Shown: positions 2,825 to 16,755 of the stretch, in pieces | How positions within the stretch are numbered: the first letter of the stretch is position 1 | Layout of the letters: each line of letters opens with the position of its first letter | Assembly (NCBI GenBank): GCA_000004695.1 | Contig: CM000153.2 | Location: 2,944,001-3,008,000, forward strand | Origin: Dictyostelium discoideum | Taxonomy: Eukaryota | DNA: 64,000 nt | Reading direction: 5' to 3' | Made by a program: the position numbers and the translations under genes | The notes under the pieces: model-generated | The model's input: the letters and a program-made list of their open reading frames with translations, nothing else | What the model was told of the DNA's origin: nothing | Databases searched by the model: none

Positions 2825-5800
2825 TTATTTTGGTACATTATTATTATTATTATTATTGTTATAAGCAGAACTTGAAGAACTACCTAAAGATGAGGTTGAC
2901 ATATTAATAGAACTTGGTAAAGTTGGTGATCTTGATCTAGTTAAAAGATCTTTAGTGGTTGATAAACGTTTTGCTTTTGATTTTTCTTTTAAGATGAAAT
3001 AGGTTTCAAGTAAATGAATCTCTTCAATTAATCTTTGATTCTTTTCTTCCTCTCTACGTAATTTATCTTCCAATTCAATATTTTTGATGAATTCATTTGA
3101 GACAACGGTTTCTTTTTGAAGTGATGATCTTAAGTCTTCAACCTCTCTAAGATAATGAGTATAATCTCTAGAGACTCGGTTATCTCTATGTAAATTATTA
3201 ATGGTATCTCTAATTTGATCCAATTTTTGTTCAATAACAGCATTACTATATTGTGGATTTGCTTGGAATGGAATTTGTTGTTGTTGTTGTTGTTGTTGTT
3301 GATATTGTTGATATTGTTGTTGTAGCAATACAAGATTCTCTGGTTCAAAGCAACTTTGAGATCTTTGACGTGTGAATGCAGATGAAGATGATACAGAAAT
3401 TGGTGTTTGATTTGGTTGCTCATTACCAAACATCATTAAATTATTATTTGAATAATAATCATCATCATAAATTTCACGTGAATAACGAAAGTTTGAAGAT
3501 GATTGTGTAAGATCAACTGGTTTATATCTATTTGAAGAGAATCTATTACTACCACTTGATGTAGTTGTAGTTGTAGTGGTTTGTTGTTGTTGTTGCTGTT
3601 GTTGTTGTTGATATTGTAATGGTATTTGAGATTGTTGAGTTTGTTGATATTGTTGTTGTTGGATTTGAAGTTGTTGTAATTGCATTTGTAATTGTTGATT
3701 AATAGTATTACTATATCTTCTATTTGAGGAGGAGGATGAGCCATTACCATAATTTTTACTATTACGATTACTACCTCCACTACCGTCTATTGTAGAGATA
3801 ATATTTGCTGTAGATCTTGTTAATGTTGAATTCACTGATGAAGATGAGGAAGAAAGACCAAATAAATTTAATCTTTCTCTTGGTGATAATCTCTTCTTTT
3901 CAATCTCTCTTTCAATCTCTTTATTAATATCTCTACTTGCTCTCTTCTCTTGTTTATTATTGATGGTTCTATCTTTGTATCTTTCTAAATCGATTGAATA
4001 ACGTAATAGTTTCTCTCTCTCTTTCTCTTCTCTTGTTTTCTTTTCCTTTGAATATCTATCAATCTTTTCTTTAATTTGTTGAATTGCAGCTTTTGTATCT
4101 TCATTGTTTGTATATGCAACACTTCTTCTATAGATTTTAGATTGATCAGTTGTATTATTACCACCACCACCACCACCAACGCCAACACTTGTATTACTAC
4201 CAACGCTAAGAGAACTACCTCCATTACCACCACCACTGCCAACACTAAGAGAACTACCACCATTACCACCATTACCACCACCAATACTAAGAGAACCACC
4301 ATTTGGAGTTGTACCAGTAGTACCACTTGGTCCACCATTATAAAGATAATTTCTATTGACATTATATTGAGTATCTTCTATGTATTGAGTTAAATCCAAA
4401 TTTGGATCAACTCTAAAGGTTCTACGATCAGATTTTGTAGAGTTTGTATCACTAATTGGTTGAATTGATTGTTGTGATTGTGATAAAGATGATGATGATT
4501 GTTTTTCTTGTTGCTGTTGTTGTTGTTGCTGCTGTTGTAACATTTGTTGTTGTTGTTCAGGTGAAAAAGTAGTAGTAACAGTAAAAGTAATTGGAGCAGT
4601 AGAATCATGTGGAGATGTGATTGTAGTTGAAGTGATAGTTGAAGAGGAAGGACTATTATTTTGACCATTTGAGGGTAATAAACCAGAGATAGTAATAGAA
4701 GCAGGTCTACTTGAATATCTTTTCTCACCACCACTTGTTGTCATAATATTGATTGGTTGAGTTGGAGCAGACTCTACTAATTTCTCTTCATATGGTCTCA
4801 TATAGTAAAGATGATGTTGTGGAAAAACTTCATTATAAAAGAAATCGTGCATTTGAATTGAATAGGTAACGATTGCAGGTACACAATTTAGGGTTGGTAC
4901 TAAACAAATGGCAATATTTGAAATTGTCATTTTATTTTGATCGGATCTACTCATAAGTTTACCTAAGAGATTTGTTAATTCTTGCATTACTTCAAAATGT
5001 ACAGTTGGTAATTGATGCACCAATACACGTAAATTGCTAAGTATTTCCATATCGACAGGTTTCTTTTTGCCTTCTTCATCAATGAATAATGATACCACAC
5101 GTTTATTGATTGATTGTGGTACGAATACAGGTAAATCTCTAAAGAATCTTTTCAATAGACCTGCAGCTGTATAGGGTTCTATGGGAGAGACATCAACATC
5201 TTCACCATTATCGAATAGTTTTATATATTGATTGATTGTTAAATCCACACCGGGTATACGAAATAAACCCTCGGAATTCAATGATGTTCTCTCTATATGA
5301 TCAATGAGTTTTTCGATGATTATTGGTACATTTGAACCCGCTCTACATGGTACCTGAGTCAATGGTACTCCAAATATTTTACGTGCATTTGGATTATATA
5401 TAAATGGTATACCATTATTCATAACGATTTGTGTTGTTTCATCATATTGATTGTTTGTATAAATATGTCTTATATAATAATTGTTTGATGCTAAATTTAC
5501 ATGTTGTGTTTGTTGTTGTTGTTGAATTGGTTGTGTTAATTGATGATTGTGATTATGATTATGGTTATGACTATGACTATGATGACTAGTTGCTATATGA
5601 TGATTGGCTGTATATTGAAGGTGCCCTATTTCGTCATGATGATTACGTGATAGAGTTGGTGAATTATCTCCACTATATGATTCATTTTGATGATGTTTAC
5701 TATGTTTTTTATCTTTTTTTGATAAACTTGATGTTGGTGACCTATCTGTTCCACTATTACCACTACTACCACTACTACCTGTATAATCTTGTTTATCACC

Positions 5801-5854
5801 TTCCTTTTTATCTTTATGAAAAATTTGTACAGATCTTCTAAATATATTTTTCAT
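2825..5854 (-). CDS. RhoGAP domain protein (1009 aa) with poly-Q, poly-N and Ser/Gly-rich low complexity and a C-terminal coiled coil.
   Basis: Single ORF. The RhoGAP core is recognisable (IFGVPL...EGLFRIPG...KLFDNGEDVDVS...YTAAGLLKRFFRDLP...VHQLP). Dictyostelium-style homopolymer codon runs. A-rich leader before the ATG. Confidence 0.85.
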   Translation of the reverse strand: MKNIFRRSVQIFHKDKKEGDKQDYTGSSGSSGNSGTDRSPTSSLSKKDKKHSKHHQNESYSGDNSPTLSRNHHDEIGHLQYTANHHIATSHHSHSHNHNHNHNHQLTQPIQQQQQTQHVNLASNNYYIRHIYTNNQYDETTQIVMNNGIPFIYNPNARKIFGVPLTQVPCRAGSNVPIIIEKLIDHIERTSLNSEGLFRIPGVDLTINQYIKLFDNGEDVDVSPIEPYTAAGLLKRFFRDLPVFVPQSINKRVVSLFIDEEGKKKPVDMEILSNLRVLVHQLPTVHFEVMQELTNLLGKLMSRSDQNKMTISNIAICLVPTLNCVPAIVTYSIQMHDFFYNEVFPQHHLYYMRPYEEKLVESAPTQPINIMTTSGGEKRYSSRPASITISGLLPSNGQNNSPSSSTITSTTITSPHDSTAPITFTVTTTFSPEQQQQMLQQQQQQQQQQEKQSSSSLSQSQQSIQPISDTNSTKSDRRTFRVDPNLDLTQYIEDTQYNVNRNYLYNGGPSGTTGTTPNGGSLSIGGGNGGNGGSSLSVGSGGGNGGSSLSVGSNTSVGVGGGGGGNNTTDQSKIYRRSVAYTNNEDTKAAIQQIKEKIDRYSKEKKTREEKEREKLLRYSIDLERYKDRTINNKQEKRASRDINKEIEREIEKKRLSPRERLNLFGLSSSSSSVNSTLTRSTANIISTIDGSGGSNRNSKNYGNGSSSSSNRRYSNTINQQLQMQLQQLQIQQQQYQQTQQSQIPLQYQQQQQQQQQQTTTTTTTSSGSNRFSSNRYKPVDLTQSSSNFRYSREIYDDDYYSNNNLMMFGNEQPNQTPISVSSSSAFTRQRSQSCFEPENLVLLQQQYQQYQQQQQQQQQIPFQANPQYSNAVIEQKLDQIRDTINNLHRDNRVSRDYTHYLREVEDLRSSLQKETVVSNEFIKNIELEDKLRREEEKNQRLIEEIHLLETYFILKEKSKAKRLSTTKDLLTRSRSPTLPSSINMSTSSLGSSSSSAYNNNNNNNNVPK

Positions 5855-7532: not shown

Positions 7533-8479
7533 ATGTTGAAAGATGATAATAATGATATAGGTCAACACCAACCAAGCCAACAACAACAACAAAATAATAA
7601 CGAAGATAATGACGATATGAGTGTGGGGGATTTATTTCTTAATAAATCATATGTCAAAAAAACACTAGAATATTTTGGAGTAAATGTCAATTTAAATGTT
7701 TTAGATTCAGCATCAAGTAAAAATTATATTTATTTATTTTTATTTTTATTTTTATTTTTATTTTTACAAGATTATTTTTTATAATAATAATAATATTAAC
7801 ATATTTTTATTTTATTTTTTTATTTTTTTTATTTTTTTTTAAAAAAAAATCAGCTGATTTTGATTTAACAGGTCAAGTAATTTGGCCATCAGCACAGGTA
7901 TTAACTCAATATATTATAAAGAATCAAGAAGAATATAAGAATAAGAAAATTTTAGAAGTTGGATCAGGAGTTGGTGTATGTGGATTATTTTTAGCAAAAT
8001 TAGGTCAACCATGTACTCTTAGTGATAATAATGAGGTTGTATTAGATTTACTAAGATTAAATGTTGAAGAGTCAACAGCAGATGGTTATAAATGTGATTG
8101 TATTAAATTAGATTGGGGTAATCAAGAAGATATGGATAATTGTTTACTAAAATCAAAAGATAATGATAATAGTGCTGGTGGATTTGATATGATAATTGGA
8201 TCGGATATAGTTTATTGGAAAATTGGAATTGTACCATTATTTAAAACAGTTTCATATTTACTTAAACATAATGATGAAAACTCAAGATTTGTTACATGTT
8301 ATCAATCAAGATCAACTCAAACTGATAATTATCTTTTAGAACAAGCAACTTTACATGGATTCGAATATGAATTCAAACCAATAGAAACATTTTTAGATCG
8401 TTCTCTTTTAACTTTTAATGAAGATTCAACAATTTCAATTATTAATTTAATAATTTTTAAAAGAATAAAAAAAAATTAA
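7533..8479 (+). CDS. METTL21/FAM86-like protein-lysine methyltransferase (Methyltransf_16 family); join(7533..7716,7854..8479).
   Basis: ATG at 7533 (the ORF-track start at 7503 is TTG). Donor GTAAAA at 7717 and acceptor CAG at 7851-7853, phase 1. The spliced product reads ...LDSAS-T-DFDLTGQVIWPSAQVL...ILEVGSGVGVCGLFLAKLG...DMIIGSDIVYW, the SAM-binding motifs of the Methyltransf_16 family. Confidence 0.7.
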
Positions 8480-8646: not shown

Positions 8647-9733
8647 ATGGGTAAACATGTACAATTAGTGATGGGTCCAGCTGGAAGTGGAAAGGTATTA
8701 TTTTTTATTTTTTATAAAAATTTAATAATATATATACTAATTCTTTTTATTCATATAAATATAAAGTCAACATATTGTGACACAATGAGAAAATATTGTG
8801 AAGAAATTAAAAGATCAGTACATATTGTAAATTTAGATCCAGCAGCAGAAGTATTTGAATATCCAGTATCGGTTGATATAAAGAATTTAGTTACAGTTGA
8901 TGAAGTTATGGATGAATTACATTATGGACCAAATGGTGGATTGGTTTATGCAATGGAATATTTAATAGAGAATATGGATTGGTTAACAGATGAATTGGGT
9001 GATTATGAAGATGACTATTTAATTATCGATTGTCCAGGTCAAATTGAATTATACTCTCATATACCAGTCATGAGAATACTGGTTGACCATTTACAACAAA
9101 TTGGGTATAGTGTTTGTTCTGTATTTTTAGTAGATTCTCAATTCATTCTAGATAATTGTAAATTTATAAGTGGTGCATTAATGTGTTTATCTGCTATGGT
9201 TCGTTTAGAAGTACCTCATATTAATGTTTTAACTAAAATTGATGTTTTAAAAACTTCTGATCAATATAAAGAAATTGAAAAGTAATTATATTTTAAATTA
9301 AATTTAGGTTAAAATATATATATATATAATATTAATTCATAAATTATATTTAGGTTTTTAGATTTAGAAGTACAAAATTTAGTTGAAGAATTAAATTTAG
9401 AAACTCATGATAGATATCATAGAATGAATAAAGCAATTGGTTCATTAGTAAGTTTTTTCAAAATATTATGGTTATACATATACATATATAGATACTAATT
9501 GTTATTATTATTATTATTATTTTTATTTTTAGTTGGAAGATTTTAGTTTAGTTGGTTTTGTACCATTGGATATTACAGATCAAGAGAGTTTGAATGTTTT
9601 ATTACAACATATTGATAATTCAATTCAATATGGTGAAGATTTAGAACCAAAGGAACCACCATTAGAGAATGATGATGATGATGATGATGACGAAGGTGAT
9701 GAAATCATTAGGATGATGAATGGAAATCTTTAA
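8647..9733 (+). CDS. gpn3: GPN-loop GTPase 3 (GPN3/ATPBD1C homolog); join(8647..8694,8767..9281,9354..9447,9533..9733).
   Basis: [16 protein letters not shown] | [12 protein letters not shown]...HYGPNGGL (GPN motif)...[11 protein letters not shown]...KEIEK | FLDLEVQNL...KAIGSL | [13 protein letters not shown]...[11 protein letters not shown] matches human GPN3 along its length. Three introns with donors GTATTA, GTAATT and GTAAGT, and phases consistent across junctions. Confidence 0.85.
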
Positions 9734-10585: not shown

Positions 10586-11503
10586 ATGTTTAAACAAGTT
10601 TTTACAATTACTTTTGGAGATTGTGCTGAAAATCACGTAAATATGGAGAAACTTGGATCAATGTCAGATCGAGGTTTTGATTTAGATGATGTTACTAAAT
10701 TTAAAGATTATTTTGAAAAGAAAGGATTAACTACAGAATTTTTTGATTTAAAAGATTTAGTTAAAAAGGATAAAAATAAAAACAAAGTAAATTTATTTAA
10801 AAAGAAAAATGAAGATAAAATGAATGAGGAAGAAAAAGAAGATGATGAAGAAAAAGAAAAAGAAAAAGAAAAAGAAAAAGAAAAAGAAAAAGAAAAAGAA
10901 AAAAAAGATGAAGAAGAAGAAGAATTATTAAATTATAATGATGCATATTTATTAATTGTTAGAAATGGATTATCATCAATTTGTAATGTTAATGATTTTC
11001 ATCAAGAACAAAATAAATTAGAAAAAGATAAAAAGGCATTTATGTATGGTAGAGTTGTAAATAAAACAGCTAGACATAATCTTTGTTTTACAGATGGTGA
11101 GTCACGTGAACCAGAATATGAAAAGGGTAAGGGTAGGTTGGTATCTTTTAACGATTGTCCATTATTGAATAAAGCAAGGGAGACATTTATAGATATCCTT
11201 GGTGATAAAGCTGATGGATTGGTTGCTGAGGGTAATTACTATTATGAACCAAGCAAATGTGGAATTGGCTGGCATGGTGATGCTGAACGTCGTAAAGTGA
11301 TTGCAATCAGAACTGGTCAAAGAATGAATATTTGTTTCAATTGGTTCATAGATTCAAAACCTGTTGGAAATAAATTCATTCAATTTTTAAATCATGGTGA
11401 TATCTATATTATGTCTGAATATACAACTGGTTTCAATTGGAGAAAAAAGAAAATTCCTACTCTTAGACATTCTGCTGGTTGTTCAAAATTCACTTCATTA
11501 TAA
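10586..11503 (+). CDS. Hypothetical 305-aa protein. The C-terminal ~110 aa resemble the AlkB-type 2OG-Fe(II) oxygenase core. The N-terminal part carries an acidic (EK)n low-complexity tract.
   Basis: Single ORF with Dictyostelium codon usage and an AAAATG start context. The C-terminus GWHGDAERRKVIAIRTG...FLNHGDIYIMSEYTTGFNWRKKKIPTLRHSAG aligns by eye to E. coli AlkB LHQDKDE...LLEHGDVVVWGGESRLFYHGI...RYNLTFRQAG. The second Fe-ligand His appears replaced (W or shifted). The functional call is inference only. Confidence 0.6.
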   Translation: MFKQVFTITFGDCAENHVNMEKLGSMSDRGFDLDDVTKFKDYFEKKGLTTEFFDLKDLVKKDKNKNKVNLFKKKNEDKMNEEEKEDDEEKEKEKEKEKEKEKEKEKKDEEEEELLNYNDAYLLIVRNGLSSICNVNDFHQEQNKLEKDKKAFMYGRVVNKTARHNLCFTDGESREPEYEKGKGRLVSFNDCPLLNKARETFIDILGDKADGLVAEGNYYYEPSKCGIGWHGDAERRKVIAIRTGQRMNICFNWFIDSKPVGNKFIQFLNHGDIYIMSEYTTGFNWRKKKIPTLRHSAGCSKFTSL

Positions 11504-11669: not shown

Positions 11670-12181
11670 TTACATTTTTGAAACAAATCTATTTTTAATG
11701 AAAAACTTCTCATCACCATTTTGGTAACTTTTTTTTTGGTGATAAATTGCAATGTATTCAATCTATATTATTATTTAGAAAAAAAGAAAAAAAAAAGATA
11801 AATTAAATTAATAAATATATTAAAAATTTTTAAAAAAAAGAAAAATAAAATTATACATACACAGAATTCATTTGAATTAATTTTATCATTTAAATAATTA
11901 AATTTAAAGTCAAAACCTATATTAGAAACATTACATGATAAATATTTTACATTTGAAATGGTTGATTGGCTAATTGATTTAAAATAAATTGCCAACTTTG
12001 GAGTATTGGTGAATGGAATATCAAAAATAATTCTTTGGGTTTGGTCATTGTTTTTTTCATTACAAACAATATCTCCAACATTAATTTCTGTTTTAACATT
12101 TTTAAAATTAAAATTCTTGAAAATATTATTTTCAATATTATTATTATTAATGTTATTTATATTATTTGTTTCTTCTATCAT
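11670..12181 (-). CDS. Small H-type-lectin-like protein; proposed complement(join(11670..11762,11861..12181)).
   Basis: ORF 11771..12181 ends in a hydrophobic poly-F tail, typical of intron read-through. A canonical GTATGT donor sits right after ...NSNEFC (11860-11855) and an acceptor ATAG at 11764-11763. The second exon then encodes IEYIAIYHQKKSYQNGDEKFFIKNRFVSKM*. The core IIFDIPFTNTPKLAIYFKSIS...NIGFDFKF...EYIAI resembles the H-type lectin fold pattern. The splice model is speculative. Confidence 0.35.

Positions 12182-13138: not shown

Positions 13139-16755
<3,617 letters not shown>

What the first reader, a model, noticed from the sequence alone, without database searches (positions are those of the whole stretch)
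10586..11503. Candidate AlkB-like 2OG/Fe(II) oxygenase with a possibly non-canonical metal site
The C-terminal 110 aa align by eye to the AlkB double-stranded beta-helix core (WHGDAE ~ HxD; NHGDIYIMSEY ~ EHGDVVVWGGE; ...LRHSAG ~ ...FRQAG). The position of the second Fe-ligand His appears to be W (FNWRKKK), unless the ligand is the H of LRHSAG. The N-terminal half is unrelated, with an acidic (EK)n repeat. If real, this is a divergent or inactivated nucleic-acid demethylase-like protein, not one of the well-described ALKBH orthologs.
Basis: inference. Interest (0 to 1): 0.6.

Follow-up and report, generated by a model that had tools for sequence, protein, structure and literature searches.

The report
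Rewired AlkB-like oxygenase of amoebae/giant viruses
This Dictyostelium gene encodes an apparently active iron/2-oxoglutarate oxygenase of the AlkB DNA/RNA-repair fold, from a very large uncharacterised family shared by amoebae and giant viruses, in which the last strand of the catalytic barrel appears to come from the start of the protein and the two classic cofactor-binding arginines are missing.

Summary

The metal site is canonical. H230, D232 and H295 are present in 341-343 of 343 sequences. W285 lies in a longer loop and is not a substituted ligand, so the protein is not inactivated.

LRHSAG is the distal-His strand (βVII), not AlkB's FRQAG. The N-terminal 60 aa are conserved across the family; only the (EK)n run is a lineage-specific insert.

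The real oddity is elsewhere. The protein ends 10 aa after H295, so the C-terminal βVIII with RxNxTxR is absent. Coevolution analysis places the N-terminal strand TFTITFGD between βI and βIII, which is the βVIII slot. I8-A214 is the strongest of 29,912 couplings. Arg never occupies the two arginine positions, and invariant R242 on βIII is the likely substitute (inferred).

The family has 2,279 clusters, mostly from giant viruses and amoebae, and is often fused to nucleic-acid-binding domains. The substrate is unknown.

The parts
10586..11503 (+). Complete single-exon ORF, 305 aa plus stop: AlkB-like Fe(II)/2OG dioxygenase of the amoeba/giant-virus family
   Evidence: ORF list. End-to-end homology to more than 1000 proteins and 2,279 clusters at 50% identity. 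AF2 model pLDDT 92.1, pTM 0.86.
10595..10621 (+). Residues 4-12 (QVFTITFGD): N-terminal beta-strand inferred to occupy the jelly-roll betaVIII slot. T5/T7/T9/G11 correspond to AlkB R204/N206/T208/R210.
   Evidence: DSSP strand 5-11. DCA couplings I8-A214 (rank 1 of 29,912), T7-A240, G11-A240 and V5-A297. Same core as the canonical betaVIII 'RISITFR' within the fusion protein P0321. Position 5 is T/V/A and position 11 is G/C/S, never Arg.
10622..10657 (+). Residues 13-24 (CAENHVNMEKLG): invariant E15-N16-H17...M20...G24 hairpin/loop that follows the betaVIII-like strand. Inferred to be an additional active-site or lid element.
   Evidence: Conservation. DCA couplings to the 151-174 lid and to W229/A233 next to the HxD motif.
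10658..10762 (+). Residues 25-59: conserved helix (33-45) plus strand (50-54) that extends the major sheet beside beta1 (121-125)
   Evidence: DSSP. DCA couplings 48-125, 51-126, 53-124 and helix 33-45 with helix 192-209.
10763..10939 (+). Residues 60-118: K/E-rich low-complexity insert including (EK)n. Lineage-specific and not part of the fold.
   Evidence: More than 75% of sequences have gaps in these columns. Low pLDDT. (AAGAAA)x15.8 at 10830-10924. Repeat length differs among Dictyostelium species.
10940..11218 (+). Residues 119-211: counterpart of the AlkB N-terminal extension / nucleotide-recognition-lid region, with invariant G155, K160, R163, N165 (GRVVNKxARHNLCF)
   Evidence: The order of secondary-structure elements matches AlkB beta1-alpha1-beta2..alpha2 (the AlkB topology is from my own knowledge). 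PF13532 matches in homologues start at profile position 7-30 in this region. Conservation.
11219..11479 (+). Residues 212-298: jelly-roll strands I-VII
11234..11242 (+). N217-Y218-Y219: the betaI 'NxY' motif (AlkB N120/Y122, ALKBH2 NRY), a 2OG-binding motif
   Evidence: N217 in 342/343 and Y219 in 343/343 sequences. ALKBH2 sequence. AlkB sequence.
11273..11290 (+). H230-G-D232-A-E234-R235: the HxD metal ligands plus an ER pair shared with ALKBH2 (HRDDER)
   Evidence: H 341, D 342, E 341 and R 342 of 343 sequences. ALKBH2 chain sequence.
11309..11311 (+). R242 on betaIII (AlkB S147, ALKBH2 Ser of VSFG): candidate relocated 2OG C5-carboxylate-binding arginine (inference)
   Evidence: R in 340/343 sequences. 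Aligned to AlkB S147. In the DCA register it is the lateral neighbour of residue 5, the R204 slot.
11438..11440 (+). W285: conserved Trp in the extended betaVI-betaVII loop (WKKK). Not a metal-ligand position.
   Evidence: W in 331/343 sequences. It lies in a non-strand segment between 276 and 292. It couples to G231 and T292.
11459..11479 (+). T292-L-R294-H295-S-A-G298: betaVII with the distal metal ligand H295
   Evidence: H295 in 343/343 and R294 in 342/343 sequences. Last strand of the model. betaII-betaVII couplings 229-296 and 231-292.
11480..11503 (+). Residues 299-305 (CSKFTSL) plus stop: short C-terminal tail that packs on the minor sheet. There is no betaVIII here.
   Evidence: The modal tail after the His is 10 residues in viral homologues. 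All top 150 representatives end their match at the profile end. The tail couples to betaII, VII and IV, not to I or III.

Best explanation
The gene encodes a catalytically competent Fe(II)-dependent, most likely 2-oxoglutarate-dependent, dioxygenase of the AlkB superfamily. Structurally it is nearest to the ALKBH2/ALKBH3 repair demethylases.

Shown: iron would be held by H230, D232 and H295.

Inferred: 2OG is bound by the conserved betaI N217/Y219. The two arginines that AlkB proteins carry on the final barrel strand are replaced by arginines on or before the neighbouring betaIII (R242, and R235 or R236).

Supported by coevolution, secondary structure and motif identity, but not checked on coordinates: the eighth jelly-roll strand is supplied by the N-terminus (residues 5-11, TFTITFG). 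This makes the fold a circular-permutation-like variant of AlkB. The chain then continues into an invariant AENH loop that probably adds to the active-site lid.

Inferred: the enzyme flips out and oxidises an N-alkylated or otherwise modified base in DNA or RNA. It would hydroxylate the alkyl group, which then leaves as an aldehyde. This would serve repair or modification-editing in amoebae and in the giant viruses that infect them.

The (EK)n run is a Dictyostelium-type low-complexity insert in a surface linker and has no catalytic role.

For: Sequence: 54/121 homologues hit PF13532, best 1.5e-6 (29 bits against a gathering score of 31.2), over profile positions 7-162. hhalign aligns 235-275 with AlkB 140-177.

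Active-site conservation in 343 sequences: H230 341, D232 342, H295 343, N217 342, Y219 343, E234 341, R235 342, R242 340.

Topology: the last strand, 292-298, carries H295 and the protein ends at 305. All homologues end about 10 aa after the His. In DCA on 343 sequences (Meff 282), I8-A214 ranks 1-4 of 29,912 pairs in four parameter sets and both random halves, T7-A240 ranks 17-47 and V5-A297 ranks 57-124. Even-numbered residues 4, 6 and 8 couple to helix alpha1. The strand map gives b3-I-bN-III-VI-b1, and the C-terminal tail lies on the minor sheet. In the fusion protein P0321 the canonical AlkB betaVIII 'RISITFR' and the family's start 'TITITFG' occur in one chain.

Nucleic-acid link: fusions to SAP, SAP_new25, Rho_N, the TFIIS/Med26 N-domain, zf-primase, a PNK-like AAA_33 kinase, a Tgs1-like cap methyltransferase and a canonical AlkB domain.

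Selection: 2,279 clusters at 50% identity, and the gene is retained across Dictyostelium and Tieghemostelium.
Against: There is no biochemical evidence of any kind. I could not inspect the model coordinates, so the betaVIII placement rests on coevolution, DSSP and motif similarity.

Artificially permuted sequences did not extend the PF13532 match. hhalign of the N-terminal strand against AlkB 200-216 was not significant (score 6.1, probability 0.2%).

The window protein itself has no Pfam, NCBIfam or PDB sequence hit.

Neither canonical 2OG-binding arginine is present, so use of 2OG is assumed and not shown. The role of R242 is an inference from its position only.

Genomic context in giant viruses gives no functional information. 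The fusion partners point to nucleic acids but are rare, seen in a few percent of members.
Confidence: 0.7

Rival explanations
1. It is an ordinary, merely divergent AlkB homologue with the standard strand order. The N-terminal module is an accessory domain that packs elsewhere, and the barrel is closed in some other way or left with seven strands.
For: Permuted sequences did not improve the Pfam match. The profile-profile match of the N-terminal strand to AlkB betaVIII was insignificant. Model coordinates were not inspected.
Against: No residues are available after betaVII, because the protein ends 10 aa after H295 in essentially all members. The strongest coupling in the protein links residue 8 to betaI, and other strong couplings link residues 7 and 11 to betaIII. 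Only windows over residues 5-11 couple to both strands. The C-terminal tail couples to the minor sheet.
Confidence: 0.12
2. It is a catalytically dead AlkB-like pseudo-enzyme, for example a nucleic-acid-binding or scaffold protein.
For: The canonical RxNxTxR arginines are absent. The window protein falls below all Pfam thresholds.
Against: The HxD...H triad, NxY, E234/R235 and R242 are invariant in at least 340 of 343 sequences spanning 2,279 clusters. That pattern indicates a maintained active site, not a decayed one.
Confidence: 0.05
3. It is an active Fe(II) oxygenase, but either it does not act on nucleic acids (a protein or small-molecule hydroxylase, as proposed for ALKBH4 and ALKBH7) or it uses a co-substrate other than 2OG because the betaVIII arginines are gone.
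Against: The best structural matches are the nucleic-acid enzymes ALKBH3, ALKBH2 and AlkB. The HxDxER motif is shared with ALKBH2. The lid-like GRVVNKxARHN region and the basic WKKK loop are conserved. The fusions are to DNA/RNA-binding or processing domains and to a canonical AlkB. NxY and R242 are compatible with 2OG binding.
Confidence: 0.13

Closest known systems
Human ALKBH2 / ALKBH3 (DNA/RNA m1A and m3C oxidative demethylases)
   Different: Identity is only 11-16%. The NLTF-like strand is at the N-terminus rather than the C-terminus, and both of its arginines are absent. There is an extra invariant AENH loop and a helix-strand module. The betaVI-betaVII loop is about 10 residues longer and carries WKKK. 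An Arg (R242) replaces the betaIII Ser. No PF13532 hit reaches threshold.
E. coli AlkB (PF13532, 2OG-FeII_Oxy_2)
   Different: AlkB R204 and R210 on the C-terminal betaVIII have no counterpart. The Pfam match stops at profile position ~162 of 194 in every member.
Mimivirus and other viral canonical AlkBs (ALKBH8-like, characterised in PMC4051686; AlkB domains of plant RNA viruses)
   Same: They are viral AlkB-fold proteins, and some occur in the same kinds of genomes. BFVD lists them as weaker structural matches (E 1e-6 to 1e-3).
   Different: They are a different family with the standard strand order. One metagenomic protein (P0321) carries both a canonical AlkB domain and this family's domain, so the two are not interchangeable.

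Membership tests
AlkB superfamily (fold level) | Double-stranded beta-helix core with the AlkB-type N-terminal extension. Best structural matches should be AlkB-family enzymes. | tested here: met
AlkB superfamily / 2OG oxygenases | HxD...H facial triad for Fe(II) | tested here: met
   H230 341/343, D232 342/343, H295 343/343. H230 is at the end of betaII and H295 is in betaVII of the model.
AlkB family | NxY motif on betaI (AlkB N120/Y122) that contacts 2OG | tested here: met
   N217 342/343, Y219 343/343. The motif sits in strand 213-219. The AlkB and ALKBH2 sequences have NRY at the equivalent place. The contact with 2OG itself is from established knowledge and was not tested.
AlkB family | C-terminal betaVIII carrying RxNxTxR (AlkB R204...R210), which binds the 2OG carboxylates | tested here: not met
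   The protein ends 10 aa after H295. The strand in the betaVIII slot is N-terminal. It reads T/V-x-T-x-T-x-G with no Arg in 343 sequences.
Pfam PF13532 (2OG-FeII_Oxy_2) | Score at or above the gathering threshold (31.2 bits) | tested here: not met
   The window protein has no hit at E <= 10. The best family members reach 29 bits, and 54/121 have E <= 0.01.
ALKBH2/ALKBH3 orthologous groups | Orthology: close sequence relationship and the same domain order | tested here: not met
   11-16% identity in structural alignments. The profile of the family finds no PDB sequence at E <= 10. The strand order differs. No phylogeny was made.
Fe(II)/2OG-dependent nucleic-acid demethylases (functional class) | 2OG- and O2-dependent oxidation of an alkylated base in DNA or RNA | not testable with these tools
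   Only indirect evidence: the fold, motif conservation, and fusions to SAP, Rho_N, TFIIS-N, a PNK-like kinase, a cap methyltransferase and a canonical AlkB.

The most novel reading that the evidence does not exclude
A very large, uncharacterised clade of AlkB-fold dioxygenases (about 2,300 clusters at 50% identity; giant viruses, Amoebozoa, Heterolobosea, chytrids) is a natural circular permutant. The 2OG-binding betaVIII strand has moved to the N-terminus and lost both arginines. Their role has been taken over by arginines on or next to betaIII, and the segment after the moved strand has become a new invariant active-site loop (AENH). The new loop may give a substrate specificity not seen in ALKBH1-8, for example a viral or host nucleic-acid modification.
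Probability: 0.55. Interest if true: 0.65.

Novelty: new variant of a known kind. Interest (0 to 1): 0.55.

Why it matters
AlkB enzymes are central to direct reversal of alkylation damage and to erasing DNA and RNA methyl marks. Their RxNxTxR strand is treated as a family signature and is a target of inhibitor design.

A clade of about 2,300 sequence clusters keeps the iron triad but supplies that strand from the other end of the chain, without the arginines. If confirmed, this would show that the 2OG site of this fold can be rebuilt. It would also explain why the family escapes Pfam.

It would add an untested enzyme to the DNA/RNA repair or modification toolkit of giant viruses and their amoebal hosts. 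Dictyostelium offers a tractable knockout system, and the ~250-aa viral proteins are good candidates for crystallography.

Tried and rejected
1. Direct Pfam, NCBIfam and PDB sequence searches with the window protein gave only low-complexity noise from the EK run.
2. A profile of 121 family members against PDB sequences gave no hit at E <= 10.
3. Artificial circular permutants of six members (N-terminal ~25 aa moved to the C-terminus) were scanned against Pfam. The PF13532 match was unchanged, still ending at profile position ~162, so the test was uninformative.
4. hhalign of the family alignment, native or permuted, against an E. coli AlkB alignment. The AlkB hits from the database were all at least 77% identical (Neff 1.9). 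Only the 235-275 vs 140-177 core aligned (E 0.008). The pairing of residues 1-17 with AlkB 200-216 had the predicted register but a score of 6.1, which is not significant.
5. The first DCA run was dominated by a gauge artefact at aromatic positions and was discarded. It was redone in zero-sum gauge without the gap state.
6. The afdb50 fold library was unavailable.
7. Gene neighbourhoods in two giant-virus contigs showed typical NCLDV genes and no functional linkage.
8. Literature searches for a permuted AlkB or 2OG oxygenase, and for dictyostelid or giant-virus members of this family, found nothing specific. The characterised mimivirus AlkB is a canonical ALKBH8-like protein.
9. Rejected: 'W285 replaces the distal His', 'LRHSAG = FRQAG', 'N-terminal half unrelated', and 'viral insertion in the host genome'. 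On the last point, the neighbours are ordinary dictyostelid genes.

Full report
**1. The observation**

The ORF at 10586-11503 (+) is there and encodes 305 aa. Its first and last residues align with those of intron-less giant-virus homologues, so it is a complete single-exon gene.

The surrounding DNA is 10-33% GC. The neighbouring ORFs encode a RhoGAP, a GPN-loop GTPase, an H-type lectin and a lysine-methyltransferase fragment. The best hit is a 93%-identical hypothetical protein of Dictyostelium cf. discoideum. This is an ordinary dictyostelid chromosomal gene, not a viral island.

The exact sequence is not in the protein collection. Orthologues carry the automatic UniRef name 'Alpha-ketoglutarate-dependent dioxygenase AlkB-like domain-containing protein'. 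A superfamily-level label therefore already exists in databases.

**2. Is it AlkB-like?**

Yes, although sequence methods barely see it. The window protein has no Pfam, NCBIfam or PDB sequence hit apart from low-complexity noise. A 121-sequence profile finds no PDB sequence.

However, 54 of 121 homologues hit PF13532 individually. The best is E 1.5e-6 at 29 bits, against a gathering score of 31.2, and the matches cover profile positions 7-162 of 194.

An AlphaFold2 model built on the 121-sequence alignment is confident (pLDDT 92.1, pTM 0.86). Only residues 68-80 fall below pLDDT 50.

- All of the top 50 Foldseek PDB hits are AlkB-family.
- BFVD returns family members named '2OG-Fe(II) oxygenase' from Marseille-, Pitho- and Cedratviruses, followed by canonical viral AlkBs.

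**3. The metal site**

In an alignment of 343 family sequences, H230 (341), D232 (342) and H295 (343) are essentially invariant.

H295 lies in the last strand of the model, residues 292-298. That strand couples to betaII (229-296 and 231-292), as expected for betaVII.

W285 (331/343) lies in a betaVI-betaVII loop that is about 10 residues longer than in AlkB. LRHSAG is the distal-His strand, equivalent to AlkB FYH187GI, and not FRQAG.

The betaI NxY motif is also fixed (N217 342, Y219 343). So is an H-x-D-x-E-R motif that matches ALKBH2 HRDDER. The protein shows the conservation pattern of an active enzyme.

**4. The N-terminal half**

It is not unrelated to the rest of the protein.

- Residues 1-59 are highly conserved: T7, T9, E15, N16, H17, M20 and G24 are each at or above 92%.
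- Residues 119-211 reproduce, in order, the AlkB N-terminal extension: beta1, alpha1, the lid-like GRVVNKxARHNLCF segment, and alpha2 (the AlkB topology is from my own knowledge).
- Only residues ~60-118 are an insert. More than 75% of sequences have gaps there.
- The insert is encoded by (AAGAAA)x15.8 and varies in length among Dictyostelium species. Tieghemostelium has an independent acidic insert at a different site.

**5. The feature that is unusual**

Mapping the model's elements from residue 121 onward onto AlkB uses up every strand through betaVII. The chain then ends 7 residues after that strand. Viral homologues most often have exactly 10 residues after the His. All 150 best representatives match the profile from position ~3 to ~253 of 254, even when other domains are fused on either side. 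The C-terminal betaVIII with the family signature RxNxTxR (AlkB R204...R210) is therefore absent.

The tools do not expose model coordinates, so I tested by coevolution where the N-terminal strand sits. The input was 343 sequences (Meff 282): 120, 147 and 74 translated from viral contigs, plus the query. I used mean-field DCA in zero-sum gauge with APC correction.

- Positive controls came out correctly: the IV-V hairpin (252-261, rank 6), II-VII (229-296 and 231-292), and helical i/i+4 pairs.
- The strongest coupling of all 29,912 pairs is I8-A214 (z 16.5). It ranks 1-4 in four parameter settings and in both random halves, and 3-6 by APC-corrected mutual information.
- T7-A240 ranks 17-47. 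G11-A240 has z 5.0 and V5-A297 has z 5.4.
- Residues 4, 6 and 8 couple to helix alpha1 (Q4-N143, F6-K147, I8-Q142).
- The two strongest couplings fit one antiparallel register: 8 pairs with 214/239, 7 with 215/240, and 5 with 217/242.
- A strand-adjacency map gives the major sheet as b(164-169) - betaI - betaN(5-11) - betaIII - betaVI - beta1(121-125) - b(50-54).
- The C-terminal tail couples to betaII, VII and IV, so it lies on the minor sheet.
- Windows over residues 5-11 are the only strand-like segment that couples to both betaI and betaIII.

This is the betaVIII position of a jelly-roll. Odd-numbered residues face the barrel, as R204, N206, T208 and R210 do in AlkB (own knowledge).

A natural fusion protein gives a direct comparison. 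P0321 has a full canonical AlkB domain (PF13532, 92.6 bits, profile 31-194) whose betaVIII reads P-R-I-S-I-T-F-R-H. It is followed by this family's domain, which begins E-T-I-T-I-T-F-G-G. Across 343 sequences the two arginine positions are T/V/A (position 5) and G/C/S (position 11), and never Arg.

**6. How 2OG might still be bound (inference)**

R242 on betaIII is invariant (340/343). It aligns with AlkB S147 and the ALKBH2 Ser of VSFG. In the DCA register it is the lateral neighbour of residue 5, the R204 slot. G11, the R210 slot, neighbours R/K236 (291/343 basic) and invariant R235, and D12 couples with 236. An arginine swap between adjacent strands is therefore the simplest model.

The loop that follows the moved strand (A14-E15-N16-H17...M20) couples to the lid region (151, 154, 167, 174) and to W229/A233 beside the HxD motif. 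This suggests the rearrangement created an extra active-site element.

**7. Distribution and function**

The family has 2,279 clusters at 50% identity with E <= 1e-3, and 975 with E <= 1e-30. At least 271 IMG/VR giant-virus contigs carry it. It is present in Tupanvirus, Pithovirus, Marseillevirus-like and Cedratvirus genomes, in dictyostelids, Acanthamoeba, Willaertia and a chytrid. Virus gene neighbourhoods give no functional information.

Fusion partners seen in a minority of members are:
- SAP, SAP_new25 and Rho_N (HeH-type nucleic-acid-binding motifs);
- the TFIIS/Med26 N-terminal domain;
- zf-primase;
- a PNK-like AAA_33 kinase;
- a Tgs1-like cap guanine-N2 methyltransferase;
- ankyrin repeats, DUF4326 and DUF5763;
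- a canonical AlkB domain.

Together with the ALKBH2/3-like fold and the shared HxDxER motif, this favours a nucleic-acid base as substrate. In ALKBH2 and AlkB the acidic residue two positions after the metal-binding Asp contacts the exocyclic amine of m1A or m3C (own knowledge). Which lesion or mark is the substrate is unknown.

**8. Comparison with what is known, and novelty**

At fold level the protein is an AlkB-superfamily member: the fold, the triad and the NxY motif were tested and met. It fails two family criteria: the Pfam threshold, and the C-terminal RxNxTxR strand. It is not an orthologue of ALKBH1-8.

I found no paper describing this family or any permuted AlkB or 2OG oxygenase in the searchable library. 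The characterised mimivirus AlkB is a canonical ALKBH8-like enzyme.

I rate it a new variant of a known kind. The AlkB-like label is already in databases. The apparent strand permutation with relocated arginines, in such a large virus/amoeba clade, is unreported as far as I could determine.

**9. Caveats**

- The betaVIII placement rests on coevolution, DSSP and motif identity, and was not checked on coordinates.
- Two sequence-based tests of the permutation were uninformative.
- 2OG dependence, the role of R242 and the nucleic-acid substrate are inferences.
- Whether the arrangement arose by true circular permutation or by recruitment of a new strand is not resolved.

Noticed in passing
P0321 (metagenomic protein, 590 aa): A natural fusion of a complete canonical AlkB domain (residues 24-186, PF13532 92.6 bits, betaVIII 'PRISITFRH') with this family's domain (213-480, starting 'ETITITFGG'). 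The two AlkB-like modules are presumably non-redundant. The arrangement is also the kind of tandem intermediate from which a circular permutant could arise.
   Followed up: partly
P0383, P0279, P0250 and Med26-fused members: Family domain fused to a PNK-like AAA_33 kinase (P0383), to a Tgs1-like RNA cap guanine-N2 methyltransferase (P0279), to SAP/SAP_new25 (P0250), and to the TFIIS/Med26 N-terminal domain (4 of 121 and 4 of 79 members scanned). These hint at RNA/DNA end-processing or transcription-coupled roles.
   Followed up: partly
window 10830-10924: An (AAGAAA)x15.8 microsatellite inside the coding sequence encodes the (EK)n run. Its length differs between Dictyostelium species (proteins of 283-305 aa). 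The Tieghemostelium orthologue has a separate acidic insert after residue ~30.
   Followed up: yes
window 11771-12181 (-): A 136-aa ORF immediately downstream on the opposite strand has an H-type lectin domain (PF09458, E 1.6e-6) preceded by an Asn-rich run. It may be one exon of a larger gene.
   Followed up: no
window 8132-8479, 8647-9285 and 9533-9733 (+): A Methyltransf_16 (lysine methyltransferase) fragment lies at 8132-8479. The 8647-9285 ORF has a strong GPN-loop GTPase match (PF03029, E 1.5e-66), and a further ORF at 9533-9733 has an acidic D/E tail. These look like exons of intron-containing genes rather than separate genes.
   Followed up: no
window 2825-5854 (-) and 13139-15580 (+): A 1009-aa RhoGAP-domain protein lies upstream. 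An 813-aa ORF downstream has no Pfam match and was not examined further.
   Followed up: no
window residues 285-288 of the ORF (11438-11449): A conserved basic loop W-K/R-K/R-K/R between betaVI and betaVII resembles in composition the RKK DNA-binding loop of ALKBH2 (HSLPVRKK), but at a different place in the fold. It is a possible nucleic-acid backbone contact.
   Followed up: no
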